A DNA stretch of 20,000 nt. It comes from Scenedesmus sp. PABB004. Taxonomy: Eukaryota. Of this stretch, positions 2,532 through 19,725 are shown one piece after another. A program made the position numbers and the translations under genes. Location: contig JABVCE010000041.1 of NCBI GenBank assembly GCA_014905635.1, positions 169,092-189,091 of the forward strand, read 5' to 3'. The notes below the pieces were generated by a model, which saw only the letters and a program-made list of their open reading frames with translations, made no database searches and was not told the origin of the DNA. Position 1 is the first letter of the stretch; every line of letters starts with the position of its first letter.

Positions 2532-4233
2532 TTACGCCTCACGCTCCTTGGAGACCCAGTGGGACACCATGATCGAGTCGAACACGATCTGCCCGAGGTG
2601 CGCCAGCACGCATGGCACGACCGCGGCGCCCACCGCCGCCTCGCCCAGCACTGGCGCGAGCTTGGCGCACACGGTCACCGCGACCGGCAGCGTCTTGACG
2701 GACGCGACCAGCAGCACTGCGCGCCGCACGTCCCGACCCGCGCGCCCCGGGCCGCCCAGCTGCAGCAGCCTGCGGGGGCGGCGGCGGGTGCCACACGCTC
2801 GGCGAGCGCCAGCGTGCGCAGGGCCGCCCGAGCGCGCGCGCCCGTCGCCGGCGCGCCTGGTGGCGGTCAAGTTCAGCGCAAGGAACGTTGCGTGGATTCC
2901 GATGCCGGCAGCAGCTGTGCACAGCAGGGCGGCCGCGTCGAGCGCGACTCGCTGGCTGACGGCCTTGCTGATCTGCATCCACGGCACCAGCGCCAGCAGC
3001 CCCGCGGCAACGTACGAGAGCAGCCGCTTCCGCGCGTCGATCGCCTGCGCAGCGCCTGCCAGAGCAGCGCGCAGCGCGGGGCTCGGCGGTCAAATGCGCA
3101 GGCGACAGGCGTCGGCGCCGCATCGGCGCGGCGCCAGGCGTCGGTGCCGCGCGGCGCGGCGCAGCGCCGCCGCACCTGGCACGAAGCCTCGGATGGAGGC
3201 GCCCAGCAGCGTGGGCAGCAGGATGGTCTGGCACAGCTGCGCGAGGAGCGGCAGCGGCTCGAGCACGAGCCCCGCCGCGCCCGCGGCCTGCGCGGCGGGC
3301 GCCGCCGCGAGGACGTGGGGCAGCAGGAAGGGCATCGTGAAGATGCCGAGAATGTTTGACGCCACCGTCAGCAGCAGCGCGAGCGACACGTTGCCGCCCA
3401 CTTGCTGCGCGCGGGCGGATGCGGGGCGCGGAAGGTGGGCGCGGGCGCCCGCGCGGGGCGGGGCGCGGCGCGCGCCGCCGACGCCCGGCGCCGCGCCTGC
3501 GTGAACGTGACGCCGCTGGAGAGCGCGGTGGGCATGGAGCAGAACACGCCGAGGCCCAGCGCGAGCGTGGACGGCTGCAACGGCAGCCGCACGACCAGCA
3601 GCCCGAGCAGTGGCGTGAGGAGCAGGATTGAGAGCAGGCCGTACGCGATCGCGCCCCGCGCCGACAGCGCGGCCGCCGCCTCCTTGCGCCGCAGCTGCAG
3701 GCCCTGCGCGCGGCGCGGCGCGGCGCAGCGAAGGCCGTGCGCGGCCGCCGCGCGCCGCGGCGCGTGCGCCCGTCTGGCCGCGCCGCACGCGCCCTGTGCC
3801 GCACCTGCACCACGAAGATGCCAAACGTCGTGATCGCTGGGACCTGCAGCCCCGCCGCCGCGACGCCCAGGCCCGGGCAGGCCGCGCCGAGCGCCATCGC
3901 GGTGAGCAGCGCAAGCGGCAGGAAGTGCGCCTGCGCAAAGGCCGCCACCGCGGCCGCCCAGCCAGCGACTGCTGCAGGAGGGCCCCCGGCTGCGCCGCCA
4001 GCCGCCGCAGCCGCGCGCCAGCAGCGCCGGAGCGCCGCAGCAGCGGCGCCCGCCCGCGCCGGCGCGGGCCACGGCGGCGCCGCGCGCGTGCCCGTCCGCG
4101 AGGCCTGCAGGCGCCATGCGCGGCAAAGCGCAGCGCCGGAGGCACGCCGCGGCGCGCACGGCGCCGCTGCTGCCGCCGGGCGCGCCGCCGCCGCTGGGCG
4201 CCCCGCCGACAGGGCGCGTTGCGGGCTCGCCAT
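2532..4233 (-). CDS. BASS4: Plastid sodium/metabolite (bile acid:sodium symporter family, SBF-like) transporter, BASS4-like
   Basis: Exons (-): 4233-3805, 3703-3497, 3404-3176, 3055-2857, 2769-2532 (TAA). Ala/Arg-rich transit-peptide-like N-terminus; motifs HFLPLALL, FGIFVVQGLQLR, FCSMPTALSSGVTFTQQVGGNVSLALLLTVASNILGIFTMPF, LVPWMQISK, ASVKTLPVAVTV, PCVLAHLGQIVFDS match the BASS4/SLC10A7 group. Alternative start ATG at 4242. Confidence 0.85.
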
Positions 4234-4521
4234 GACGCGCATGTGAGTCGTTACGATCTCGGGAGGGCTGTTCTGGTCGGTGCGAAGGGGTCGCTCCACG
4301 CAGCAGCAGCAGCAGCAGCGCTGGCAAGAGCCGGTCAAACGATGGCGTCGCTTGGCTGCTCGAGCGCGGCCAGCTGCGCGCGCGCCGGCCGACTCGTCGG
4401 CCTGCCGACGACGGCGCCGAGCCCTCACGGCCGCCGCCATTGCTGCTCACCGCTGGTGACGCGCCGCTGGGGGTCCAACGTGGCGGTCACAGGCCGCGGT
4501 GAGCGGCGCGCCGCCCGCCGC

Positions 4522-4551: not shown

Positions 4552-4638
<87 letters not shown>

Positions 4639-5307
4639 CTCGCCGCCGCCCTCGCCCTCGCCGCCGCCCTCGCCCTCGCCCTCGCCCTCGCCCTCGCCCT
4701 CGCCCTCGCCCTCGCCCTCGCCCTCGCCCTCGCCCTCGCCCTCGCCCTCGCCCTCGCCCTCGCCCTCGCCCTCGCCCTCGCCCTCGCGCTCGCTCGCCGC
4801 CGCCGCGGCGAGCGCGGCCACGTACGCGTGCTGCAGCCAGAGCAGCAGGGACCAAAACCCCAGCATCAGCGTCCAAAACTCCACCTGCTCGCTCAGCTGC
4901 GCCGCTCCAGTCGCGGCCTGCTCGCTCAGCTGGGCGGCTCGCTGCGCGCGGTTGCGGCGGCGTGTTGCCGCAGCGGCAGCTCCCACGGCCCGCCTCTGCT
5001 CTGCGATCGAACGCGTAACCAGGTGCGCCGGCAGCGGCTCGCCCGGGTGCTGCGGGCGCGCGGCGCGCGGCGCGGCGCGGCAGGGCTCGGCGCCGACCGC
5101 CTGCGGCAGCGGCGTGGCCGCCGCGCGCGCGCGCAGGGCGCAGCTCACGCTGCCGGCGTAGGCGGCGGCCAGCTCGGGCTTGCGGTCGCTGTACCACCGA
5201 TCGGACACAGCGTCCACGGTCCTGTCGCGGCGGCGAGGGTGAGGCGGCAGGGTCGAGGGCAGCGTGTTAACAGCAGCCGCGGGCGCAAGAAGCTGCGGGG
5301 CGCGAGC

Positions 5308-5375
<68 letters not shown>

Positions 5376-7906
5376 AGCGGCGCCCACCTGTCGGCGAGGC
5401 CGGGCGGCAGGCCCCTGAGCGCGAGCGCGGTGCGGCCCATGGACGAGCCGGCGCCGTACTGGCTCTCCGCCAGGTCCGCCACCAGGTCGTCCTCGTCCTG
5501 GTCCCAGCAAGCGTCGACACCCAGCTTGGGGAACGCCGCGCTGAACTCGGCCTCCAGCTCGCGGCGCTGCTGGACGTCTGTGCACAGACGGCGACGAGAG
5601 CGCAGCGGGCTCAGCGGCGACGACGGGGCGGTGCCGCCCGACCCGCCCCGCGCAGCGCGCAGCACGCTGCGCGCAGCCCCGCGGCCCGGTGCTCACTCTC
5701 GGCCGTGAGCGGCGTGAGCAGCTCCGTGGCGGCGCGCACGGCCTCGGGTCCGATGCTGGCCAGGTCGAACAGGCTGCCCAGGCCGGGCAGGTAGCTGGCC
5801 ACGCTCGCGCTGCTCAGCAGCAGCGGGGGCAGGCCGCTGGCGAGGAGCCCGTCCACGCGCGTGGGCGCGCAGAGCGCGACGTAGCCGCGGCGGGCCGCGG
5901 GCATGTCCTGCCAGAGGCCGACCGACGCGCGCTGCGGGAGGATGCGGGTGAGGTAGGCCTTCGGCCCGTTGGTGTCCTCCGCGCAGAGCGCGGCCAGCTG
6001 CGGCGGGCAGGGGCGCGGCGACGGCGGCGTCGGCGCTGCGGCGGCCGCACGCGCGCCCAGCACGCGCCCAGCACGCGCGTGCGCAGCGCGCCGCCGCCGC
6101 GGCCGGCACGGCCCCCGCCCCACCGCCCCACGCACCAGGCCCGCGGGGCCGCCCTTCTCCCCGCTCATCCACTCGCCCACGCTGCGCCAGTGGTTGCGCA
6201 GCCACCCGCCCACGCCGGCCCAGATCGCGACAGCGCCGCGGCCTGGTGCGAAGGGAGGAGGGACGGGGGCGGGGCAGGGGGAGAGAGATGTTGACGCCAG
6301 GGGGGGGGGGGCTGCAGTGGGGCAGCAGCGCTGAGGCGGCGCCCGCGCGGCGCGCGCAGCGGCGCCCCCCGCCGCACCGCGCCAGAGGCAGTAGTCGCCG
6401 GGCGAGGTGATCGCGGTCACCTCCCAGAACGCGGCGACCTGCAGCGCGTTGACCGGGTCCGTCGCGAGGCGCTGCAGCGTCATCACCTCGCCGAGCTGCA
6501 TGTTGACGAAGCATGGGGCCGTCAGCAGCATCGACTTAAAGTCGTACCGCTGCAGCGGCGACTCGGCGCCGCCCCTGGCGGCAGACGGCGCGGCACGGCG
6601 CGACGCGTGTGGGCGCGCGGCGCAGCGCCCAGCGCGCGCAGCCGCCAGCAGCGGCGCAGCGTGGCCGCGCGTGCTGCCGCGCGCCGCGGCCGAGCGCCAA
6701 CGCGCAGCGGCGCGGCGGCGGCGCGGTGACGCACTTGGACCTGGGGTCGAGGCGCACGACGACCGTGGCGGTCGTGAACACCTGCTCCGCCGCCGCCGCT
6801 GCCTCCATCTCGAGCGCGACAACCTGCGCCTCCGTGGCCGCCGGCAGCTGCGCCTGCAGCTGCGCGAGCGCCTGCCGCGCGGCAGCCAGGCGCCCGATCG
6901 GCTCCACAAACTGGGACCAGCGCGGGCCGTTGATGCTGCCCCGCCTGGACTGACTGGCCTCGGCCAGGGCAACGCCCAGGGCAACGCCCGCGTCGCGCAC
7001 CGCTGACAGCGCTGCTGCCAGCTGCTCCGCCGCCGCTGCGAGCACCGCGGCCTTTGCATGCTCGAAGTCCAGCGCGATCTTGAGCACGCGGAGCGTGTGG
7101 TCCTTTGTGAGCGCGAAGAGCACATCGCCATCCTGCTCGATGAGCAGGCGCTGCCGCTGCCAGATGATGCTGCGCAGCGGAGCGCCGCGGAGCGCCGGGC
7201 CGTCAGAGGGGGCCGGGCCGTCAGAGGGGGGCGGGTATCATGACGGGCGGTCCGGGGGGAGGAGGCGAAAGGGTGCCCCGCGGCCGTGCAGCGCGGCCGC
7301 GCAGGCGCCTGCGCCGCACGCCGCGGCGGCGGCCGCTCACCAGCGGAGCATGAACTCCCAGTCGCCCTCGCCACCGTCGGCCACGGTGACGCTGATGGGG
7401 AAGGGCTCGGCGCCGTCCTCAAACACCTCGCGCAGCATGCCCGCGCGGTCCTCGCGGTCCTTGCGCGCGTCGCCGCGCACGCGGCAGGAGGCGACGTTGG
7501 CCACGGCCTCAGAGCGGGCCGCCCAGGGGTGCTTGTAGAAGGGCAGGAACGACTCCTGGGCCAGCTGGGCGCGCGTGGCAGGGCGGAGGGCGAGCGTGAG
7601 GCGGGGGGCGCGCGCGCCGCGCGCGACGCGCGGCGGCGCGCGCAGCGGCGGCGCGCGCAGCGGCGACGCGCCCGCCCGCCGGCGCACCTCAAACTTCATC
7701 TGCGACGGGCAGGCGCTGCGCAGGCGCTCGAAGAAGCGCTCCAGCTTGCCGTTGCCGGGCAGCCGGTACGCCAGGTAGGCGTCCGCCAGCATCGCCAGCA
7801 TGGCGTCGTCGCCCCGGCCGAAGGCGGCGACGACAAGCTCGTAGAGATCGCCGTCCGTGATGGCCACCCAGCAAAGGACCTGCCACTGCAGGGCGGTGAG
7901 CGCCAT
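4522..7906 (-). CDS. Hypothetical multi-exon protein with a C-terminal hydrophobic segment and (EG)n/poly-Gly tail
   Basis: Exons (-): 7906-7688, 7564-7341, 7169-6735, 6574-6378, 6242-6136, 5997-5697, 5577-5388, 5221-4522. All junctions are GT-AG with consistent phases and strong GC3 bias; globular-looking sequence (e.g. YDFKSMLLTAPCFVNMQLGEVMTLQRLATDP). No family recognised; the last exon and stop are uncertain. Confidence 0.65.
4552..4787. repeat. Compound microsatellite: (GCC)~29 followed by (CTCGCC)n
   Basis: Pure GCC run 4552-4638, then mixed GCC/CTCGCC units grading into a pure hexamer array to ~4787. Confidence 0.95.
5308..5375. repeat. (GGC)~22 trinucleotide microsatellite, intronic
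   Basis: Direct reading; lies inside predicted intron 5222-5387 of the hypothetical gene. Confidence 0.95.
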
Positions 7907-8825: not shown

Positions 8826-9559
8826 TCATGCCAGGCTGGCGCGCTGCGGCGTGACCGCCTTGCGCCGGTGGCTGCCCGTGCTGCGCACGCTGTGGTCGCT
8901 GTCGTTGCCGTCGCCGCTGCCGTCCGCGCCGCCGCGCCCGCCGCCGGCAGTCGGCGGCGTGGCGCTCGCGCTCGCGGGGTCAACCGCCGGCCACGCTGCG
9001 TCGGCCACGCGCCGGCGCCGCCTGCGCGCCCACTCCCAGCCCAGCCCAGGCGGGCGCAAGGCGCTCACTTCCAACCCATCTCGTGCAGCAGCATGCGCAT
9101 CTCGCGCGGCAGCGGCGCCACGACGGTGACGGGCCGCTGGCGCGGGCGGAGCAGCACCACTTCGCGGCAGTGCAGCAGCAGCGGCGCGGCGCCGCCGTCT
9201 CCGCTGCCGCCGCCACGCTCCCCCGCCGCCGGGTCGGCGGCCGGCAGCTCCGCCTGGTCCTCGCCGCTGCCGTCGGCCGCCGCCAGCGCGGCGCCCCAGG
9301 CTGCGCCGGCGCCCCAGGCTGCGCCGGCGCCCGGCGAGGCAAAGCCGCCACGCACGCTCAAGCCGGACAGCGCTGACCCCAGCATCAGCCGTCCGCTCAA
9401 GCCCTGCGCGCGCGGCAGGTCGCTCGCCGCCGCGGCGGCCTCCAGCGCGTCCAGCAGACCCTCGCGGTGCTCTGCCAGGCCGGACGCGTTGTCCAGCGGC
9501 TTGGCGGCGGCGGCGGCGGCAGCGAACAGCAGCAGCGCGATCGCGGCCGTGCGGCGCAT
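8826..9559 (-). CDS. Small signal-peptide-bearing hypothetical protein containing an RluA/RluD pseudouridine-synthase-like C-terminal motif
   Basis: ATG 9559, MRRTAAIALLLFAAAAAAAKP signal-like; exon 9559-9069 ends LLLHCREVVLLRPRQRPVTVVAPLPREMRMLLHEMGWK. It either stops at TGA 9065-9067 or splices (AA|GTGAGC, 47-nt intron 9022-9068) to exon 9021-8826. Confidence 0.5.
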
Positions 9560-9650
9560 GGTGGCGACGCCTGGCGCGGGTTGGTGGCGACGCCTGGCGC
9601 GGGTTGGTGGCGACGCCTGGCGCGGGTTGGTGGCGACGCCTGGCGCGGTT
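9559..9650. repeat. 23-bp minisatellite x4 (TGGTGGCGACGCCTGGCGCGGGT)
   Basis: Three perfect copies and one near-perfect copy, abutting the minus-strand ATG at 9559. Confidence 0.95.
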
Positions 9651-9957: not shown

Positions 9958-12889
9958 ATGGCTCTGGCGCCGCGCCGGGCTCTGGCGCTCCTGGCAGGCG
10001 TTCTGCTGTCGCTGCTCAGCAGCGGCGCGGCGGCACCGCAGGCGCCGTTCGTGGTGGAGTACGAGCCGAGCGCGGCCGCCGCCGTGCGCGGCGCGCTGCA
10101 GGCGCAGGGCTTCCGCGTGCTGCGCGACCACCGCGACTTCAACCGACTCGTCGTCGCGGCCGGCGCGGCAGCGGCCACCGCGTCCACGGCCAGCGGCGCG
10201 GCCGGCGCCGACCTGGAGGGCCAGCTCGCGGGCGTGCCGGGCGTGGCGGGCGTGGCGCGCGCCGGCGTGCGCAGCCTGTTCCCGCAGCCCGTCGTGGCGG
10301 CCAGCCCCGCGCCGGGCAACGCCAGCGAGCAGTGCAGCGCGGACGACGGCAAGCTCGGCCCCGACGCCGACCTCGCGCGCGAGGGCGAGGGCACGCCGTA
10401 CGGCATCAAGCTGGTGCAGGCGGACGACCCGGTCATGGTTGACATCAGCCGGCGCCACGCGGGCAAGGTGCTCTTCTGCGTCATTGACACGTGAGCGTGG
10501 TGGCGGCGGCGGCCACGGCGGCGCGGGAAGGGGCGGTGGGGGCGCGGGGGTGGCGCGCGGGGAGCAAGGGGGCCCGGGGGCTGCCACGGCGTGCACTCGA
10601 CCGCCCCCCCCCCCCCCCTGCTCTGCTCCTGCCCCGGTGCCCCGGCGCGCAGCGGGCTGGACCGCACCAACAAGGACTTCCCCGCGACCGTGTCGGGCTG
10701 CACCCCCGGCTACCCCAACGGCGACGTGACCGCGCCGTTCAACTACTGCTACCCCTGGGCCGAGGACAGCAACCGCCACGGCACCCACACCTCGGGTGGG
10801 CGCCACCGCCGCGCCACAGCAGCCGCGGCCGCGCCGGCCCCTAGGGTGCGCGCCACGGCTGACCGCGCCGCCCGCTGGCCGCGGAGCAGGCACAATCGGC
10901 GCGGTGCGCAACGGCGTGGGCGTGGTGGGCGTGTCTGCCGAGGGTGCAGCGATCTATCACTACAACTTCTTTGGCCCCAACAGTGAGCCCGCGCAGCGCA
11001 GCGCCGCGGCACCCCACCCGCTGCCGCCGCTCAACCCCCGCCACGGCCGCCGCCCGCCGCGCCTCCGTGCCCGCAGTGGACGCCAGCGACGACCTCGAGG
11101 TGGAGGCCTGGCGGCACTGCATCGCAGAGCTCGACGCGTGAGCCGCGCGGGCGGGCCGCACGACGCGCCCGCCCCCACGCGTGCGGACGGCGCCGGCGCC
11201 GGCGGCGGCGGCGGCAGCGCCCGCCCTCGGCGCTCAGACAGCCACGCGGGCCCGCGCTCCACCCCCCGCCCCGCGCGTGCCGCAGGCGCCGCGCGTCGAG
11301 CGGCGTGCCTGACATGAAGCTCGTCATCTCCATGAGCTACGGCAGCGCCGCGGACACCGAGTTCAGCCGCTCCGCGATCAAGGCCCTCGCGGCGGCGCGG
11401 CGCGACGTGCTGTGGGTCGCCGCGGCGGGCAACAGCGGCGACAACTCCACGCACTTCCCCGCGGGCTACGACGAGGTCATCAGCGTCGCCGCGGTCAACT
11501 GGGACGGCGCCGTCGCAGACTTTTCGACCTTCAACGCCGACGTGGAGCTCGCGGGGCCGGGCGTGATGACGCTGAGCACCATCCCCCTCGCCATGAGCAA
11601 CGCGTCCGAGTACCACGCGCGGCCCTACGCCGCCGACGTGCTGTCCGTGTCGCCGCAGCTGCCCGCCGTGGCCAGCGACGGCGGGTTCTTCAACCGCCCC
11701 GCCGTGGCGCGCGTCGAGGGCGCGCCGGCGGGCACGCTCACCGCGGAGCTCGTGGCGTGCGGGCTCGCGCAGGAGCCGTGCGCCGGCGCGGCGGGCAAGG
11801 TCTGCCTCATCCAGCGCGGCAACAACACCTTCTGCGACAAGGCGCGGCCCGCCCCGCGGCGGGCCAGGGCGCGCCGCCGCGCGGGCGTGGGGCCGCCGCG
11901 CCGGACCGAGCCGACCCGCGCCGCGGCCCCGTCCGCCGGCGCCGCGCGCAGGTGGTCAACTGCGCTGCCGGCGGCGGGGTGGGCGCCATCATCTACAACC
12001 GCGACGACGTGCCCGACTGCGAGCGCCTGGCGGGCGTGTCCCTCGGCCTCTGCGACGCCGACGCCCGCCCGCCTGCGGGCTGGCCGCTCGCGGTCACGGT
12101 GACCGCGCGGCAGGGCGCCGCACTGCGGGCCGCCATCGACGCGGGCACGGGGCCGGTCAGCGCCACGCTGCGCGTGACGGACGTGCCGCCGCAGCCGGAG
12201 ATCGGGCTGGACCTGCTCAGCGGCACCAGCATGGTGCGCGCCCGCGCGCGCCCGGCAGCGACCCGCCGCCCAGCCGCCGCGGTCGGCCGGCCCCGCCACC
12301 GCCACCGCCGCCGCGCCGCACTGCCCGCTGGGGCCCGCAGGCCTGCCCCACCGTCGCTGGCGTGGCCGGCCTGGTCTGGAGCGCGCACACCGAGTGCAGC
12401 TCGGCCGAGATCCGGCGCGCGCTGCAGGCCACGGCGTACAAGCCGGCCGGCCCGGCCGCCGGCGCGAGCGGCGCGGGCGAGCGCGACGAGCACTTCGGCT
12501 ACGGCATCGTCCAGGCGCGCGCGGCGCACGAGTGGCTGCTCGCCAACCCCTGCGCCGCCGAGGGCGGCGTGCAGGTCGCGCTGCGCTTCACCACGGTCGG
12601 CGCGCCGGCGACCGGGGACGTGGCCAGCGCAATCGGCGTGCGCGTCGAGGTCACCGATGGCGCGACCGGCTCCCCGGTCGCCGGCCAGCGCGTGGCGCTG
12701 CTGGTCGAGCCCAGCCGCAAGGCCGTCGCGTGCCGGTCCTACGCGCTGACCACCAACACCGCCGGCGTGGCCACCACCAGCTGCACCCTGGCCGAACCGG
12801 CCTCGGCCAAGATTACGGCGCGCGCGGTCGGCGGCATCGCGCGCGGCGCGTCGGCAGTCGGCACCGTGCCCGCGGCGGCTGGGCGGTGA
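9958..12889 (+). CDS. Secreted subtilisin-like serine protease (S8A) with prodomain, PA insert and C-terminal Ig-like domain
   Basis: Exons (+): 9958-10490, 10653-10795, 10890-10982, 11077-11137, 11286-11841, 11952-12233, 12341-12889. Signal peptide; catalytic Asp (FCVIDTG), His (HGTHTSGTI), oxyanion Asn (AAAGNSG), Ser (SGTSMACPTVAG); PA domain CLIQRGNNTFCDKVVNCAAGGGVGAIIYN; RDEHFGYGIVQA. Confidence 0.92.
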
Positions 12890-13259
12890 GAGCGAGCGTG
12901 AGCGCAGCCCTGCATAAGGGCGACGCTGATGGGCTGAATTGGGCGTGAGGGAGTGGGGCGCTGGCCGGTGCTGTGCAAGCACCTGGGCAGTGCGGCGAGT
13001 GCGGCGAGTGCGCACCGCGTCGCACGAGCAGCGGGCGGCCGTCACGACGGGTGACCCACCTCCTCCTCCCGCTGCTCGTCGCCCGACGCGCTTCCCGAGC
13101 TCCGCCGCGATCGACTCCGTGCGCGCCGGCGCAGCCCGACCCCGCTCGGGCGCTGCAGGGAGCGAAACTGCCAGCAACCGCTGCCGCCGTCCTCGCCAGC
13201 TGGCGCGCGGGCGGTGCCAGCGATGCTGGCTCTGGAGCCAGTAGAGTAGCTGAAACGCC

Positions 13260-16200
13260 ATGCTCGTGCAACGGCAGCGCCCGGGGTGGCGCACTGCAGC
13301 GCCGGCGGCTCGGTGCCAGCTTCTGCTGCTCGTTGTGCTGCTGCTGCGCCGCGCCAGTGGCCTTGAGTTCGAGATCCGGGTCCCGCCGGGAGTGCAGACG
13401 AAGGGGGAGGACGCCTACGTCTGCACCACGCTGCAGCTCCCCGACGACCGCCCGCTGAAGCTGGTCGGCGTGGAGCCGCTGGCGCACGCGTCGGTCGTGC
13501 ACCACATCCTGCTCTTCGGTGCGCGCGCCGCCGCCCGCCGCTGCAGCCTGCTGCCGCTGGCCTGCAGTCTGCCGCCGGCAGCCGGCCGGCGGCTGCAGCC
13601 TGCTGCCACCGGCAGCCGGCTGCAGCCCCGCGCGCGCGTGGCTGAGCGCGCGCCGCCCGTGGGCGCAGGCTGCGACGTGCCGTATGTGCAGCCCAAGCCC
13701 GGCGAGCAGGCGGCGTGGGACTGCCGTTCGGCGCCCACGTGCGGCGGCGCGGCCGAGACGGTGCTTTATGGCTGGGGCTCCAACGCGCCGCGCCTGGACC
13801 TGCCCGCGGGCGTGGGCTTCAGCGTCGGCGCGGGCAGCGCCGTGACGTGGGTGGTGGCTCAGTTCCACTACCTCGCCGAGCGCCCGCCCGGCGACGCGTC
13901 CGGCGTGCGCCTCAAGTGAGCGGCCGCCGCGCACGGGCGATCGCCGGCGGCGGGCACCGGCCGCCGCAGCGCCGACGCCCCGCCCTCCGCCGCGCGCGCG
14001 CAGCCTGCAGGACGCACCGCTGCCGTTCAGCGGTGGGCTGCTGTCCTTTGCGAGCCGCTTCACCATCCCGCCGCGCAAGGCGCACCACGTGGTGTCCATT
14101 GACTGCTGCTACCGGGGCTTCCAGCCCCTCACCAGCTTTGCCGTGCGCGTGCACACGCACACGCTGGGCCGTGCCGTGTTCATGACCAAGGCTCACGCCG
14201 CGCCGGGAGGTGCGCGCATGCGGGCGACGCGGGGCTCGGGGCTGCCCGCGCGGCGGGCCAACCCCACCCTCCCTGCCGCCCGCCCGGCAGGCCACGGGCA
14301 CGTCGTCGCCGCGGCGGACCCCCAGCAGCCCCAGGGCTTCCACCCTGTCGCGTCGGCCGTGCTCTGGCCGGGCGAAAGGCTGACCGTGGCTTGCGACTTT
14401 GACTCCAGCGACATGGCGGCCCCCGTGTCGGCAGGGCCGACCCACGCACACGAGATGTGCAACATGTGAGGCTGGGGAGGGGGGGGGGGGGGCTCAGCCC
14501 CAGCTTCGCGCGAGCCCTAGCCTACCGACCCGCCGCACACCGCCGCACACCGCTGCACACCGACGCGCCACGCGCCGCCGCCCCCCCCCCCCAGGTACCT
14601 CATGGTCTACGGCGCGCTGCCGCACAGCGAGATGTGCGACGACGGCGCGTCGCTCGCGGACGAGGCGGCGCCGGGCAACATGCGCCGCGCGTCGGTGCTG
14701 CTGCCAGACCCCTTTGTGCTCTGGGCGCCGCCCGCGCCCAGCACGCTCCTCAACCAGGTGCGCCGCGGCGGCCGCCGCCGCGCCTGCGCCGCGGCGCTGC
14801 GCGCCCCTGCCACGGCGCGGCCCCCGCTCGGTCAGGCTCAGGCCCGACCCGGCGCCGCTCGTGCCCCCGCCGCCGCCGCCGTCGTGCAGAGCGCGGTGGG
14901 CAGCGCAGCGTCCGTGGCGGTCGGCCCGGACGGCACGCTGTGGGCGCTGTTCCGCGGCGACCGCGTGTGGGCGGGTCACACGTTTGACGCGGACGACCGC
15001 GTGCTCTACAAGGACGCGCTGCGCGGCGACGTGGTGGTGCAGATGCACGCAGACACGGGTGCGCGGCTGCGGGGGCGCGGCCGGCGGCAGGGCGCCGCGG
15101 CCGCCCAGCGGCGGCCGGCTGACGCGGCGTGCTGCCGCTGCACCTGCAGGCAAGGTGCTGCGCCACTGGGGCGGCGGCGTGTTTGTGCTGCCCCACGCGC
15201 TGGCGGTGGACCGCAACAACAGCGTGTGGGTCGTCGACGCGGGGCGGCACCAGGTGCTCAAGTTCTCCGCCAGCGGGCAGCTCGAGCTGGCGGTCGGCAA
15301 GGCCTTCAACCCTAGCAATGCGCGCTCCCTCTGCAAGCCCCGCGACGTGCGTTGCGCAAAGCCGCGGCGGCGGGGCCGGCGGCGGTGTGCGCTTTGGGGG
15401 GCAACCCCAGGCGCTCAGCCCGGCCATCGCTCAGCCCAGCCGCTGCCGCCACGCCGCAGGTGGCGGTGCTGAACGACGGCGGCTTTCTGGTCAGCGACGG
15501 CTGCAGCCCGCGCGTGGTGCGCTTCAACGCGGACGGCTCGCAGCACAGCGAGCTTGCGGTGCCCGCGGGGCGCGGCGCCGCGCCCGTGCTGCACAGCCTG
15601 GTCTTGGACGAGTGCGACGGCCTGGTCGAGGTGGCGGACAGCGCCAACGCGCGCGTTCATCGCCTGCACCTGCCGACCGGCCGCCTCAAGAGTGAGTTGG
15701 CTGCCCCACGCCGACCGGACCTCAGGGGGTGCGCCCCGGGCTTGTGCGCTGACGGGCCCACGCCGCACTGCGCGCGCCGCGCAGGCACGGTCCAGCTGCA
15801 GGAGCACGGCAGCGTGCGCGCGCTCGCCAAGGGCCCGTACGGGCGCACGATCGCGCTCGTGACGGTGCGCGAGGGCGAGGACGCGGCGCTCGTGGACGTG
15901 GGCGCCCCGGACATCAGCTGGCGGCTGCCAAACAGCAGCGCCCTGGCGCCGCACGACCTCGCGCTCGGCGCGGCGGCGCTGCCGCTCACGGGCGCGGGCG
16001 ACCGGCTGCTCGCGGTCACGCTCGCGGCGCTGTGCCCTGGCTGCGGCCCGCTCGCCAAGTACGTGCTGGTGCCCAGCAGCTTTGAGCCCGAGGCTGCCAA
16101 CGCCGCGTTGGCACCGCCTGCAGCTGCCGGCGCCGCGCGGCCCGCGCTCGCGCACCGGCATGCCGACGGCGCCGACGCGGGCGCCGGCGGCGTGCATGCG

Positions 16201-16629
16201 GGGGCGGCGGACGACGCGGCCGACGACGCGTCGGTGGAGGCGCGGGAGGCGGCCGCCGACGCGGAGGAGGCCGCGGCAATGGCCGACCCGGAGCTCGCGG
16301 CGCGACTGCGCGAACGGCTGGCGCACGTGCGAGCAGAGCTGGCCGCCGCGCGCGCGGGCGACGGCGCAGAGGCGGAAGCGTTCCGCACCCTGCGCCCGGG
16401 GCCGCGCCAGGCACGCAGCGCCGGCGGCGCTTTGGCCGCACTCGTGGCGGTGAGCGTCGCGCTCGGGCTGGCTGCAGGCGCGCTGGCCATGAGCGCCCTG
16501 CAGCGGCACGCGCTGGCACCGGGGGGCGCGACTGGACAGGAACGGGAACCGCCGTTGTCTGTTGGCGGCGGCGACGCTGCGGCGCGCGCGGACGAGGGCG
16601 TGCGCCTGCTTGACGGCGGCCGGGTATGA
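13260..16629 (+). CDS. PAM: Bifunctional peptidylglycine alpha-amidating monooxygenase (PHM + PAL-like domains, TM anchor, cytosolic tail)
   Basis: Exons (+): 13260-13518, 13669-13915, 14004-14209, 14291-14465, 14595-14757, 14890-15058, 15150-15346, 15460-15691, 15785-16629. PHM Cu ligands VVHHILLF, AQFHY, RVHTHTLG, HEMCNMY, plus DAYVC and PQQPQGFHP. PAL beta-propeller motifs FRGDRVW, LPHALAVD, CKPRDVAV, LHSLVL, APHDL. TM ALAALVAVSVALGLAAGALAM. Confidence 0.93.
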
Positions 16630-17774
16630 CAGGGCGACTCGTTGTGGCGTCATCTTCCGCCGCCTGCTCGCGGCCGCGCGCGTCAGCCCCCGGGGCGAGG
16701 CGGCCGCGCCGGCGCGCAGCAGGCGCCGGCGGCGAGAGTACTAATCCCTTTGTTTGAGGCTCTGCCTTGCGTGCTGCTTTGCTCGGTCGTGCTGCTCCGT
16801 CATGCGCCACTTCCCACGCGGCACCTTGTGCTGCACCCTCCCCCCTCCTGCTGAGCAGTGCTGTCTTTGTTGCCAATGGACTGCCTTGGGCTGCCCGCGC
16901 GCGCGGCGCGGCGCTGAAAAGACAAAGATAGTTACACCACAGCTGAAAAGCACCCCTGCGCCTGACTGCTGCTCTGTGTATCGCTGCGCGCCGCGCAGTC
17001 ATCTGGCCCAGGTGACTCTGGGTCGCCTCGCGCATGGCGCGCATCCGGCCTCTGTGCGAGGCTGCTTGCACGCGCTGCCGGCGCCGCTGCACGCCTCTGC
17101 CGCGCAGCGCCAGCTGGTTAGGGCCGGCGCTGCCCGGGCCGCCCACCGCAGGGCAACGGGCCTTGCTCGGCCCGCCGCCTGGCTTGTGCGCGTGTGTTGT
17201 TCTTGTTGCAGCCTGACTGCGTCGCATACCGCAGCTTGCGCGCCCCGAGCAGGCCGTTGCGTCCGCGGCGCGCGGGCGAGTGTCCGAGGGTGCCGGCTGC
17301 CAAGCTGGGAGGCCCCGGCTCGCCTGGCTTGGCAGCGGCGCTGTGGCGGCACGCGCCAGACCCGCGCGCTTGCCGCACACATTGCCTGAGCGGTCGCGAC
17401 ATTGGCGCGAGAGTGCGGCGGCCGCTCCCGCGCCGTCGACTGAGCCTGACTGCATGCGGTGTGGACCGGCTCGGCGCGGTGCGCCGCGCGGCCTTGCAAC
17501 CGACTGCACGCAGCAGCCGCAGCGCAAGCGCCGCGAGTTTAAGGGCCGCGCCCACCTCGCCGGGCGCCGGGGCTGAGCGAAGCGGTTCACGCGCGCCACC
17601 TGCCGCCGCCGCGGGCTGAGCGCAAAGGGAGCAGCCCCCGGGGCGCTTTGGCAGCCGCACACTGCTGCCCACCGCCCACGCGCGCAGCGCCGCCCGCCGT
17701 TTCGCACCCGCCGCCAGCGACCGCCCGACCCGCCGCGGCCCGCAGTCCACGTCGCGAGCCCCGCCCGCGCTGCG

Positions 17775-18397
17775 ATGGCCTCTCGCTCCGCAATCCGCGC
17801 CCTCGTGGCGCTGCTGGCGCTGGCGGGGGCCCACGGCGCCGCCGCGGGCGCCGCGCGCTTTGGCGCTGCCGGCGAGGCGCCGGTGCCCCGCCGGCTGCTC
17901 GGCGGGCTCTGGGAGTGAGCGGGGCATGGGGAGGGCTCACACCAGCGCCGGCGCGCCCGCCGAGGGCCCGCAGCGGCGGCGGCGGCGCATTGCAGCGCAG
18001 CGACGGCGCCGACCGAGAGCGTTCGCCCGCCGCTCGCAGGAAGTTCCACGCGCCCGCGCCCGCGCCGGCACCCGCGCCGGCGCCGATCATCATCATCACG
18101 CCCCCCGCGCAGCAGCAGGTCGTGGCGGCCCAGCCGGTCGTGGCCGCGCAGCCGGTCGTCGCCGCGCAGCCGGTCGTGGCCGCGCAGCCGGTCGTGGCGG
18201 CCCAGCCGGTCGTGGCCGCGCAGCCGGTCGTCGCCGCGCAGCCGGTCGTGGCCGCGCAGCCCGTCGTGGCCGCGCAGCCCGTCGTGGCCGCGCAGCCCGT
18301 CGTGGCGGCCCAGCCGGTGACGGTCAACACGCAGGTGAAGCAGACCAACATCCAGCTCGGCGGCGGTGGCGGCCAGGCGCACCCGTTCTTTGGCTGA
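17775..18397 (+). CDS. Small secreted repeat protein / putative amidated-peptide precursor (165 aa)
   Basis: Exons 17775-17914 and 18040-18397 (GA|GTGAGC...CGCAG|G, phase consistent). MASRSAIRALVALLALAGAHG signal, RRLL, (AP)6, QQVVAA+(QPVVAA)10, ending GGGGGQAHPFFG-stop. Confidence 0.8.
18113..18310 (+). repeat. Coding 18-bp tandem repeat x11 encoding (Q[Q/P]VVAA)
   Basis: Unit CAGCCGGTCGTGGCCGCG; the ten QPVVAA copies differ only at synonymous positions. Confidence 0.95.
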
Positions 18398-18581
18398 GCG
18401 GCAGCGCGCGAGGCGGGCGGCTGGCGCGGCCGGTGTGGTGGCCAGAGTTGCACCTGCGGCGCGGGGGGGGGGGGGGGGCGGGTGAGCAAGACCACCGGCG
18501 CGCCGGCCAGGCGGCGCTGCGGCCGCGCCCTGCAACCGAGCGGTTGCTCCTGGGCACCCGCGCCCGCACCTCCGCGCGCGC

Positions 18582-19725
18582 TCAGAAGCCGTCCGTTGCG
18601 AGCAGGGCGTGCAAGGCCTCGACCACGCGCTGCCCCGCGAGGTCGAGGCTGGGGTCGGCGACCTTGGCCGCCAGCAGCGAGGCGACCGCGGCGCGCAGGT
18701 GCTTGATGAGCACGCCGACGCGCGCGGGCGCCTTGAACTTGGCCCACCCGTCCAGCAGCAGCAGGCCCTGGTCGTGCAGCACCTCCAGCTCCCCGCCAAA
18801 CGCGAGCAGCGACCACACCGGGACCATGCTCACCTCGCGCGCAAACGCGCGGCTCGTCTCCACGAGCTGCGAGTACACCAGCCAGCTTGCGCGCCGCGGG
18901 GTCAAGGGGGGATGGGTCGGAGGCGGCCTCGCCGGCGCGAACAGCGCCGCGCACGGCGCCGCGCACGGCGCCTGCGCGCCGCGCACCCGAGCTGTAGCTG
19001 CCCGCGGTGAAGCACACGCTCGCGGGGTGCACCCACACGCGGCCGAGGGCGCGCTCAAAGAGCTTGATCGACCCCGGGTCCGCCTCCACGCGCGCCGCGC
19101 CGCCCGCGACCTGCGTGTACTTGACCGGCGCCTCGACGCGCAGCACGCGCGGGTAGAAGCCTGGGGGGGGGGGGGGGGTGAGCAGGCGGCAAGCAGCGCG
19201 TGCGGCGACGCCAGCGCGTGCGGCGATACCAAGCGCGTGCCGCGACGCCAGCGCGGCGGCTGCCCCGCTCCCTCCGATTGACCCGGCGCACCCGCGGCGA
19301 GGGCGGCCTTGACGATGCGCGCGTTGTGGCTGAACTCGTCCGGCGCGCCCCGCGCCACCGCGGCGCGGCCGTACGACGCCGCGCCCGGCGGCGCGCCCGC
19401 GGCGGCGTCGTCGCGCGACGGGCCGCCCTGCTGGCGCGCGCGCAGGTGGTCGACGTACCAGTCGGGCAGGAAGCCGCGCCCCGCCAGCGTGGCGGCGTAG
19501 TCCAGGCGGCCCTTGGCGATGGCCTCCAGCACCTGCCGAGGGGGCAGGGAGGGTGTGTGTGTGTGGGGGGGGGGGGGGTCGAGGTGAGCGCGCGGTGGCG
19601 GTAGCGAGGCGGCCCACAGGGTGTGGGCCCCGCCCGCCCGCCCGCCCGCTCGCCCGCCCGCCCGCCCCGCGCGCCGCTGGCCCACCTGCTCCGACACAAA
19701 GTTGGCCTGCGCAAACTCCCGCCCC
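18582..19725 (-). pseudogene. 3' fragment of a DExH/DEAH-box RNA helicase (DHX57/DHX36-like; HA2 end + OB-fold), 5'-truncated by the telomere
   Basis: Exons (-): 19725-19686, 19532-19292, 19160-18987, 18886-18582. REFAQANFVSEQVLEAIAKGR, IVKAALAAGFYPRV, RVWVHPASVCF, WLVYSQLVETSRAFAREVSMVPVWSLLAFGG, LDGWAKF are typical DHX C-terminal motifs. No RecA core or start codon before the telomere repeats. Confidence 0.8.

What the first reader, a model, noticed from the sequence alone, without database searches (positions are those of the whole stretch)
9958..18397. Candidate amidated-peptide maturation cluster: subtilase - PAM - Gly-extended secreted precursor
Seen: three consecutive co-oriented secretory-pathway genes: a protease, PAM, and a small secreted protein with a proprotein cleavage motif (RRLL) whose last residue is Gly (…HPFFG*). 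Known: PAM acts only on C-terminal Gly; in Chlamydomonas an amidated chemotactic peptide is made from a Pro-rich precursor by PAM and a subtilase. Inference: enzyme, processing protease and substrate are physically clustered at a subtelomere, like a RiPP-style gene cluster, which I do not know to be described for PAM. Chance adjacency in a compact genome remains possible.
Basis: partly seen in the sequence, partly recalled or inferred. Interest (0 to 1): 0.85.

Follow-up and report, generated by a model that had tools for sequence, protein, structure and literature searches.

The report
Alga amidating enzyme beside likely substrates
At a chromosome end of a very GC-rich green alga, the gene for the peptide-amidating enzyme PAM lies between a secreted subtilisin-type protease and a small secreted repeat protein that both end in the glycine signals PAM acts on; this may be an enzyme-plus-substrate gene cluster, but it is seen in one genome only.

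Summary
The window is a 77% GC eukaryotic chromosome end with a TTTAGGG telomere. It carries three consecutive + strand genes. The first is a secreted S8A subtilase (9958-12889). The second is a complete bifunctional PAM, with PHM, PAL, a membrane span and a tail (13260-16629). The third is a two-exon gene for a 165-aa secreted protein (17775-18397) with RRLL, (AP)6 and 11.5 AAQPVV repeats, ending in -FFG.

New here:
- The small protein has only three detectable relatives. The two whose C-termini can be read also end in amidation-type signals: -FFG followed by RKLL, and -QLGR as I read it.
- The subtilase itself ends in -GR, an ending shown to be amidated in Chlamydomonas.
- RRLL and RKLL are known plant subtilase processing sites.
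- The subtilase is not a kexin/furin-type convertase.

Against a conserved cluster: the closest PAM found (Scenedesmus sp. PABB004, 52% identity) has an M3 peptidase upstream, not a subtilase. No RNA data exist, and no relative's locus could be fetched, so the PAM-precursor linkage is untested elsewhere.

Verdict: the small protein is probably a PAM substrate (about 0.6). A functional cluster is plausible but unproven (about 0.45). I rate it a new variant of a known pathway.

The parts
9958..12889 (+). Secreted S8A subtilase gene. My reading of the exons: 9958-10492, 10653-10795, 10890-10982, 11077-11137, 11286-11841 (or -11886), 11952-12233, 12341-12889. It has a signal-peptide-like N-terminus, a prodomain, the Asp/His/Asn/Ser motifs, a weak PA-like insert and a Big_1-like C-terminal domain.
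   Evidence: Peptidase_S8 E 1.9e-11 and 2.8e-4. PA E 0.0092, below the curated cut-off. Big_1 E 2.9e-5, below the cut-off. Best solved relative is 1v6c, an alkaline serine protease, E 6.5e-15.
12881..12889 (+). C-terminus of the subtilase: Gly-Arg-stop. This is a -Gly-(Lys/Arg)n end of the kind that becomes a PAM substrate after carboxypeptidase trimming.
   Evidence: translation ends AAAGR, then stop. Precedent: Cre12.g487700 ends -GR and is amidated.
13260..16629 (+). Bifunctional PAM gene with several exons. Signal peptide and PHM lie at about 13260-14757, PAL (NHL propeller) at about 14893-16080, a membrane span at about 16420-16500, and a cytosolic tail runs to 16626.
   Evidence: The window aligns with residues 620-1457 of P0118 (pam-b, Scenedesmus sp. 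PABB004).
16630..17774 (.). Non-coding spacer of 1,145 bases. It holds the PAM 3' UTR (a less GC-rich stretch at about 16740-16990) and the promoter and 5' UTR of the small gene.
   Evidence: Codon-usage scores are negative on both strands.
17775..17914 (+). Exon 1 of the small secreted protein. The signal-peptide-like segment is about 17775-17837. A short pro-piece ends in RRLL (17889-17900).
   Evidence: The signal peptide was judged by eye; no predictor was run.
17915..18039 (+). Intron of 125 bases, GTGAGC...CGCAG.
   Evidence: Of 7 frame-keeping GT-AG combinations, this one has the best consensus at both ends. No RNA confirms it.
18040..18397 (+). Exon 2. It holds KFH, (AP)6 at 18050-18085, 11.5 copies of an 18-base unit encoding AAQPVV at 18112-18318, a conserved tail, then Phe-Phe-Gly (18386-18394) and the stop (18395-18397).
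19722..20000 (+). Telomere repeats: degenerate units first, then perfect TTTAGGG to the end of the window.

Best explanation
PAM is flanked by two of its own likely clients, and the small downstream gene encodes a dedicated amidated secreted protein.

Proposed course (the gene anatomy is shown; every biochemical step below is inferred):
1. The 165-aa product enters the ER through its signal peptide.
2. Its (AP)6 stretch is probably hydroxylated and glycosylated, as in other algal Pro-rich secreted proteins.
3. Its free C-terminal Gly is hydroxylated by the PHM domain and cleaved by the PAL domain of the PAM encoded 1.1 kb upstream. This leaves a C-terminal Phe-amide. No endoprotease or carboxypeptidase is needed.
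4. A subtilase removes the short N-terminal pro-piece after RRLL. The plant-type S8A enzyme encoded on the other side of PAM is the obvious candidate.
5. That subtilase ends in -Gly-Arg and may itself be amidated after loss of the Arg.

The amidated product may stay a roughly 12-kDa repeat glycoprotein, as the amidated proteins of Chlamydomonas do, rather than a short peptide. On this reading the linkage reflects shared regulation or co-inheritance in this lineage, not chance.
For: - The three genes are real, adjacent and co-oriented.
- PAM keeps the residues that align with the rat PHM copper sites: the HH pair, and HxH and the Met. It also matches rat PAL, E 4e-11.
- The small protein belongs to a tiny family. 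2 of 7 hits are members (P0001, P0007). 2 of 111 hits in the exhaustive search are members (P0001, P0040). I told them apart by the conserved tail motif, checked over all 120 stored proteins. 14 of the 111 were read in full.
- The non-repeat tail aligns with P0001 at 11 of 16 identities, E 3e-5 pairwise.
- All 3 readable C-termini are amidation-type: -FFG stop (window); -FFG then RKLL stop (P0001); -QLG-R stop (P0007, after I read 55 codons that begin V-R-V-R and end P-Q as an in-frame intron).
- In C. reinhardtii, proteins ending -GRRR and -GR were found amidated by mass spectrometry. Only 49 and 24 of 771 soluble secretory proteins end in -Gly or in -Gly-(K/R)n.
- From this window's coding composition, the chance of a -G end is 0.105, of -G[KR] 0.009, and of R[RK]LL in 165 aa 0.009-0.045.
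- RRLL and RKLL are processing motifs of Arabidopsis pro-pectin-methylesterases, which are cut by subtilases.
- Chlamydomonas VLE1, a subtilase, is itself amidated and acts as a convertase for an amidated precursor.
Against: - The linkage is seen in one genome only.
- In Scenedesmus sp. PABB004 the gene model fuses an M3 peptidase to the front of PAM, so the upstream neighbour there is not a subtilase. The window has no match to that M3 part.
- PAM is a general enzyme with many candidate substrates (73 of 771 in Chlamydomonas). In Chlamydomonas, PAM and its three proven substrates have 'distinctly different expression patterns'. Clustering is therefore not needed for function.
- The FFG tail is not kept in P0007, and the Lys in the tail is not kept in P0001. 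No single conserved peptide epitope is evident.
- RRLL sits in different places in the window protein and in P0001 (there RKLL, at the very end).
- The subtilase is a general S8A type. No P-domain hit was listed among the 12 frames scanned at E up to 0.01.
- The signal peptides were judged by eye.
- P0007's C-terminus rests on an intron inferred from protein letters alone.
Confidence: 0.45

Rival explanations
1. Chance adjacency with an unrelated extracellular structural protein. The small gene encodes an arabinogalactan-like or wall-type repeat glycoprotein whose terminal Gly has no role. The subtilase is a general secreted or hatching protease. PAM just happens to lie between them in a compact genome.
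For: - (AP)6 and 11.5 AAQPVV repeats make up most of the protein.
- About one protein in ten would end in Gly by composition.
- The genome is compact, with spacers of 185-1,146 bases, so any gene has close neighbours.
- S8-PAM linkage is absent in Scenedesmus sp. PABB004.
- VLE1-type subtilases serve wall lysis in Chlamydomonas.
Against: - Three different amidation-type ends occur in 3 of 3 readable family members.
- The subtilase also ends -GR, chance about 0.009.
- Both flanks of the single PAM gene being secretory proteins with such ends is rare. Taking the 73 of 771 over a recalled total of about 17,700 Chlamydomonas genes gives roughly 0.4% per neighbour.
- There is no hydrophobic C-terminal GPI-type signal, which classical arabinogalactan proteins have (direct reading).
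Confidence: 0.3
2. The small protein is a true PAM substrate, but the gene order is accidental. PAM amidates it as one of many clients, and neither the linkage nor the neighbouring subtilase has any special relation to it.
For: - PAM has many candidate substrates scattered over the Chlamydomonas genome. Its proven ones (Cre03.g204500, Cre12.g487700, Cre17.g722300) are not described as neighbours of PAM.
- The upstream neighbour differs in Scenedesmus sp. PABB004.
Against: The same rarity argument applies: both neighbours carry C-terminal signals, and an R[RK]LL site lies next to a plant-type subtilase gene.
Confidence: 0.2
3. The small gene is not real: a chance open frame in 77% GC DNA, where all six frames stay open.
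For: - Long open frames occur in every frame of this window.
- There is no Pfam hit, no Atlas hit and no RNA run.
Against: - Homologues share a non-repeat tail.
- Codon usage is positive in the right frames of both exons.
- The splice sites are canonical.
- The listed differences in a close relative are synonymous inside the frame, with indels only outside it or summing to 6 bases.
Confidence: 0.03

Closest known systems
Chlamydomonas reinhardtii PAM - proGATI (Cre03.g204500) - VLE1 pathway (Luxmi et al. 2019, PMC6919629; 2022, PMC9351486; passages and named sections read)
   Same: - A green-alga bifunctional membrane PAM.
- A secreted Pro-rich precursor amidated at its own C-terminus without prior endoproteolysis.
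- A subtilase as convertase, and a subtilase that is itself amidated.
- The amidated product may remain a large glycoprotein.
   Different: - The genes are not described as linked there.
- proGATI is 91 kDa with folded domains and ends -GRRR. Here the precursor is 165 aa, mostly repeats, and ends in a bare Gly.
- VLE1 is a type II membrane protein compared there to PCSK7. Here the subtilase looks soluble, with a signal peptide.
[quoted passage not shown] 2018, PMC6313938, section 3.1 read; 2019 section read)
   Same: The small protein (-G) and the subtilase (-GR) fall in exactly this class. So do P0007 (-GR, inferred) and P0001 (-G followed by RK).
   Different: That class was defined by a screen of one proteome. 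Only three members are proven amidated, and none is reported next to PAM.
Plant subtilases (SBT3.x; S1P/SBT6.1 recalled) cutting RRLL/RKLL in pro-pectin-methylesterases (bioRxiv 10.1101/2022.07.28.501549, one passage read)
   Same: - The same tetrad motifs: RRLL in the window protein, RKLL in P0001.
- An S8A subtilase with a PA-like insert encoded next door.
   Different: - The substrates are unrelated.
- The specificity of the algal enzyme is unknown.
- The PA hit is weak (E 0.0092).
- In P0001 the motif is at the extreme C-terminus, where cutting after it would do nothing.
RiPP biosynthetic gene clusters of bacteria and fungi (recalled, not searched here)
   Same: A precursor, a tailoring enzyme and a protease side by side.
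   Different: - PAM is a housekeeping-type general enzyme, single in the window.
- There is no leader/core logic and no evidence of co-transcription.
- The linkage is not shown to be conserved.
Animal neuropeptide precursors with Gly-Lys/Arg amidation sites (textbook)
   Same: -FFG followed by RK in P0001 is the classical signal. Phe before Gly is, by recall, a favoured PHM substrate.
   Different: There are no multiple peptide copies between dibasic sites, no kexin/furin-type convertase here, and no dense-core granules in algae.

Membership tests
Bifunctional peptidylglycine alpha-amidating monooxygenase (PAM) | PHM catalytic core: both copper monooxygenase domains | tested here: met
   PF01082 E 1e-12 and PF03712 E 3.1e-12, both above the curated cut-offs. 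Rat PHM chains match at E 2e-7 and 3.5e-6.
Bifunctional peptidylglycine alpha-amidating monooxygenase (PAM) | Copper ligands: the His pair and a third His at CuH; His-x-His and Met at CuM | tested here: met
   The HH pair aligns with rat PHM. HxH and the Met align with rat PHM. The third CuH His is visible as FHY but was not aligned here. The residue roles are recalled from the rat enzyme.
Bifunctional peptidylglycine alpha-amidating monooxygenase (PAM) | PAL domain (NHL-type six-bladed propeller) after PHM | tested here: met
   NHL E 1.3e-5. Rat PAL 3fvz E 4e-11 over 66 residues. The last PAL exon gave no PDB hit at E 0.01, but it is 52% identical to Scenedesmus pam-b.
Bifunctional peptidylglycine alpha-amidating monooxygenase (PAM) | Amidating activity on Gly-extended peptides | not testable with these tools
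   Needs an enzyme assay.
Subtilase, family S8A | Asp/His/Ser triad with oxyanion Asn, in subtilisin order | tested here: met
   The motifs are read. Peptidase_S8 E 1.9e-11. 103 PDB sequences match at E up to 0.001. Of the 60 shown, 59 are named as subtilisin-type, alkaline or intracellular serine proteases (the other is Deseasin MCP-01), and none is named kexin or furin.
Kexin/furin-type prohormone convertase (S8B) | P-domain after the catalytic domain, and closest similarity to kexin/furin | tested here: not met
   No P-domain family was listed for any of the 12 frames at E up to 0.01. The C-terminal domain is Big_1-like. None of the 60 PDB hits shown is named kexin or furin.
PAM substrates of the 'C-terminal -Gly or -Gly-(K/R)n' class (Luxmi et al. 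2018) | N-terminal signal peptide, soluble | tested here: inconclusive
   Basic n-region, an 11-residue hydrophobic core and small residues at -3/-1, read by eye. No predictor was available.
PAM substrates of the 'C-terminal -Gly or -Gly-(K/R)n' class (Luxmi et al. 2018) | [quoted passage not shown] | tested here: met
   Small protein: -FFG stop. Subtilase: -GR stop.
PAM substrates of the 'C-terminal -Gly or -Gly-(K/R)n' class (Luxmi et al. 2018) | Signal kept in relatives | tested here: met
   3 of 3 readable C-termini (window, P0001, P0007) are amidation-type. P0007's rests on an inferred intron. P0040's C-terminus is not readable.
PAM substrates of the 'C-terminal -Gly or -Gly-(K/R)n' class (Luxmi et al. 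2018) | Amide detected on the mature protein | not testable with these tools
   Needs mass spectrometry.
Functional (RiPP-like) gene cluster | Precursor, modifying enzyme and protease adjacent | tested here: met
   This holds in one genome.
Functional (RiPP-like) gene cluster | Linkage conserved in other taxa | tested here: not met
   For S8-PAM: Scenedesmus sp. PABB004 has an M3 peptidase fused upstream of PAM, and there is no M3 match in the window. For PAM-precursor: not tested, because no relative's DNA could be fetched.
Functional (RiPP-like) gene cluster | Co-expression | not testable with these tools
   No RNA run was listed.

The most novel reading that the evidence does not exclude
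A eukaryotic, RiPP-like amidation locus. In this algal lineage the general amidating enzyme PAM is co-inherited and co-regulated with a dedicated precursor and its processing subtilase. Together they make a Phe-amide-tipped secreted glycoprotein or peptide that serves as a cell-cell signal, for example between gametes or daughter cells. The precursor family evolves fast but always keeps a C-terminal amidation signal.
Probability: 0.3. Interest if true: 0.85.

Novelty: new variant of a known kind. Interest (0 to 1): 0.6.

Why it matters
Peptide amidation by PAM is the hallmark of animal neuropeptide signalling. Its presence in green algae is the main evidence that peptidergic signalling predates animals. 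Only three algal substrates are known, all from one species and all found by mass spectrometry.

A locus where PAM sits between two candidate substrates, one of them a protease with a matching cleavage motif in the other, would do two things:
- It gives a directly testable enzyme/substrate/protease trio in a second algal order.
- If the linkage proves functional, it would be the first physical clustering of PAM with its clients that I could find. Three full-text searches found none.

It also defines a new, tiny family of repeat proteins whose only constant besides the repeats is a short tail and an amidation-type end.

Tried and rejected
- Whole-genome search: no genome is held for this window.
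- RNA evidence: no RNA holder was listed. The only two runs are DNA from one freshwater-metagenome study, each holding 0.08 of the words. When laid, they gave only 60-500-base pieces of a 90-99% similar organism. No piece bridges two genes, so they say nothing on linkage.
- Fetching relatives' loci in genome contigs, with the family alignment: 9 loci, all on named bacterial records. The 3 I translated (L002, L003, L007) are unrelated Q/P/V repeats. The other 6 were not read. None lies on a contig of the size of P0007's or P0040's.
- Fetching relatives' loci in metagenome contigs, with a 30-base degenerate pattern for the conserved tail: 9 matches, 0 of 9 family members (22-61% GC, no repeats).
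- C-terminus-only word search: 4,995 candidates, none at E up to 10 (after a parameter slip).
- ESM Atlas: no usable hit.
- Earlier notes of this scan: only bacterial PHM/PAL items and unrelated items.
- TGTAA polyadenylation signal: 2 matches in the window, both on the minus strand, no more than chance.
- Last PAL exon against PDB: nothing at E 0.01.
- Kexin/furin identity of the protease: rejected.
- Bicistronic subtilase-PAM transcript (spacer of 370 bases): considered and set aside as unlikely, because a 2.2-kb upstream coding region would block scanning. This is reasoning only.
- Complex prediction and structure prediction were not used. An enzyme-substrate pair and a repeat protein would not have changed my odds.

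Full report
**What the window is.** The DNA is 72-81% GC until the last kilobase. It ends in degenerate and then perfect TTTAGGG repeats from 19722, so it is a eukaryotic chromosome end. No whole genome is held. All six frames stay open for hundreds of codons, so open frames alone mean nothing here. I therefore relied on Pfam, on homologues and on a codon-usage scan trained on the confident exons.

That scan, with Pfam on 95 further frames (5 of 95 had a hit), gives this gene map:
- Minus-strand genes up to about 9560, among them an SBF-like transporter at about 2535-4486.
- Three + strand genes from 9958 to 18397.
- A minus-strand fragment with an OB_NTP_bind hit (E 3e-5, below the curated cut-off) that runs into the telomere.

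**The protease.** From the frame translations and the DNA, I read seven exons from the ATG at 9958 to the stop at 12887-12889.
- The donors are GTGAGC, GTGGGC or GTGCGC. The acceptors are CAG.
- One junction is ambiguous. A GC donor at 11842 would give PA-domain spacing that looks right to me. A GT donor at 11887 would add 15 residues.
- The product starts with a signal-peptide-like segment and carries the Asp, His, Asn and Ser motifs of subtilisins.
- Pfam gives Peptidase_S8 (E 1.9e-11 and 2.8e-4 on two exon frames), a weak PA hit (E 0.0092, below the cut-off) and a Big_1-like C-terminal domain (E 2.9e-5, below the cut-off).
- The best solved relative is the alkaline serine protease 1v6c (E 6.5e-15). 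The 60 PDB hits shown are subtilisin-type or other serine proteases, and none is named kexin or furin. It is therefore an S8A enzyme of the bacterial and plant kind, not a prohormone convertase in the animal sense.

**PAM.** The gene runs from the ATG at 13260 to the stop at 16627-16629.
- Pfam finds both copper monooxygenase domains (E 1e-12 and 3.1e-12) and NHL repeats.
- Exon translations align with rat PHM across the His pair, and across the His-x-His and Met positions.
- They also align with rat PAL, 3fvz, E 4e-11.
- A hydrophobic span at about 16420-16500 and a tail of about 40 residues follow.
- The closest protein among 5.8 billion is 'pam-b [Scenedesmus sp. PABB004]', 52% identical over the last PAL exon. 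tblastn of it on the window matches its residues 620-1457 along 13287-16596.
- This places the organism near the Sphaeropleales, but not in that species.

**The small gene.**
- With the ATG at 17775, seven GT-AG combinations keep the frame. The pair with consensus at both ends (donor 17915, acceptor ending 18039) gives 165 residues.
- In order, these are: a signal-peptide-like start; a short piece ending RRLL; KFH; (AP)6; 11.5 copies of an 18-base unit (91% matches) encoding AAQPVV; a 26-residue non-repeat tail; and -FFG before the stop.
- Codon usage is positive in the correct frame of each exon, and negative through the 1.1-kb spacer upstream.
- Contigs of a 90-99% similar organism in two runs of one freshwater-metagenome study cover parts of all three genes.
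- In the contig over 18268-18525, the four listed differences inside the coding part (18298, 18304, 18337, 18391) are all third positions and synonymous by my reading. Its three listed indels lie after the stop. Nine of that contig's 18 differences were not shown, so this is supportive rather than complete.
- Three listed indels in exon 1 sum to six bases, so they keep the frame.
- The gene is real.

**Its relatives.**
- A word-based search with exon 2 gave 7 hits at E up to 0.01. Two are relatives, P0001 and P0007. The rest share only Q/P/V repeats.
- An exhaustive profile search of 1.84 billion representatives gave 111 hits. By the tail motif, checked over all 120 stored proteins and by reading 14 in full, only P0001 and P0040 belong. 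The family is therefore tiny.
- P0001 (75 aa, an ORF on a 1.7-kb contig) matches the non-repeat tail at 11 of 16. It ends -FFG followed by RKLL and stop. That is Gly followed by two basic residues, the classical amidation signal.
- P0007 (an ORF call on a 5.6-kb contig) has the repeats and the start of the tail. It then has 55 codons that begin like a GT donor (V-R-V-R) and end like an acceptor (P-Q). It then has the next part of the tail, ending -QLG-R and stop. I read those 55 codons as an in-frame intron. This is inference from protein letters only.
- P0040 (5.2-kb contig) shares KFH, the repeats and the start of the tail, then diverges. That is presumably also at an intron, so its end is unreadable.
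- In sum, 3 of 3 readable ends are -G, -G-RK.. or -G-R.

**What is known.**
- In Chlamydomonas, mass spectrometry found three amidated proteins. Two need only carboxypeptidase trimming, because they end -GRRR and -GR, and they stay large proteins.
- The subtilase VLE1 acts as convertase for proGATI and is itself amidated.
- RRLL and RKLL are processing motifs of Arabidopsis pro-pectin-methylesterases, which subtilases cut.
- The window's two PAM neighbours thus both fall in the narrow class of secretory proteins with a C-terminal amidation signal. The small one also carries a plant-type subtilase site.

**Is this chance?**
- From the window's own coding composition, a -G end has probability 0.105, a -G[KR] end 0.009, and R[RK]LL somewhere in 165 residues 0.009-0.045.
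- I took the Chlamydomonas counts (73 of 771 secretory proteins) over a recalled total of about 17,700 genes. That gives roughly 0.4% of genes in this class, so both flanks of one given gene would be of the class about 2 times in 100,000.
- These are rough figures from another species. They ignore any tendency of secretory genes to gather near chromosome ends, and the pattern was noticed after the fact. Even so, they make pure chance an uncomfortable explanation.

**Is the linkage conserved?**
- The only relative visible to me says no for the protease. The Scenedesmus model joins an M3 peptidase (residues 1-619, no signal peptide) to the front of PAM. This most simply means an M3 gene lies directly upstream on the same strand. 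The window has no match to that part.
- For the precursor I could not test it. The genome contigs and metagenome-contig scans returned only bacterial repeat proteins and chance pattern matches.
- No RNA run was listed.

**Mechanism proposed.** The signal peptide is cleaved. Pro in (AP)6 is hydroxylated and glycosylated (by analogy). PAM acts directly on the terminal Gly to give Phe-amide. A subtilase, most simply the neighbour, removes the pro-piece after RRLL. The neighbour itself is a candidate for amidation after loss of its terminal Arg. The gene anatomy, enzyme identities, family and C-terminal signals are shown. Every biochemical step is inferred.

**Rivals.**
- A wall-type repeat protein with an incidental Gly: 0.3.
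- A true substrate, but accidental gene order: 0.2.
- A false gene: 0.03.

**Novelty.** PAM, algal amidated proteins and subtilase convertases are known. I found no report of PAM lying next to its substrates:
- 'peptidylglycine' + 'green alga' + 'synteny' gave 0 papers.
- 'peptidylglycine' + 'gene cluster' + 'alga' gave 9 papers. In the two relevant ones the phrase refers, in the passages shown, to a cluster of precursor-like genes and to zygote genes. The other seven I judged from the listing only.
- 'peptidylglycine' + 'Scenedesmus' gave 1 paper, which by its title and abstract start is unrelated.

Supplementary tables of the Chlamydomonas papers were not opened. They could list gene positions that bear on linkage there.

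I rate the finding a new variant of a known kind, with interest 0.6.

Noticed in passing
window 18582-19721 (minus strand) and telomere 19722-20000: The telomere repeats abut what looks like only the 3' part of a DEAH-type helicase gene. The evidence is an OB_NTP_bind hit, E 3e-5, below the cut-off, and positive minus-strand codon usage up to about 19600. There are no subtelomeric repeats. The first telomere units are degenerate. This suggests a healed chromosome break or a truncated assembly end.
   Followed up: partly
window 9559-9648: A perfect 23-base tandem repeat, 3.9 copies at 100% identity. It lies in the 400-base divergent spacer between the subtilase ATG (9958) and a minus-strand ATG at 9559. 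It may be a promoter or 5' UTR element.
   Followed up: no
window 9065-9559 (minus strand), perhaps continuing to about 8850: A divergently transcribed gene. Its product begins with a signal-peptide-like segment, so it is a fourth candidate secreted protein beside the trio. It has no Pfam family. Its C-terminus and splicing are unresolved.
   Followed up: partly
window 11842-11951: A possible GC-AG intron in the subtilase gene. A GC donor at 11842 gives PA-domain spacing that looks right to me. The alternative GT donor at 11887 would add 15 Arg/Ala-rich residues and leave a 65-base intron.
   Followed up: no
P0118 (Scenedesmus sp. PABB004 'pam-b', 1,498 aa): The public gene model joins a cytosolic-looking M3 peptidase (residues 1-619) to a complete PAM that has its own start and signal peptide. 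It is very likely two genes merged by annotation.
   Followed up: partly
window 18462-18480, 19166-19180, 19568-19580: Runs of 13-17 G on the + strand recur in non-coding stretches near the chromosome end. One follows the small gene's stop and two lie in likely introns of the helicase fragment. Metagenome contigs break or vary in length at the first run (table 5c).
   Followed up: no
window 4552-4793 and 5308-5382: Long hexamer and trimer microsatellites, (GCCGCC)n, (CGCCCT)n and (GCG)25. They lie in a stretch where the minus-strand codon-usage score is positive, although the scan's own composition may inflate the score on such repeats.
   Followed up: no
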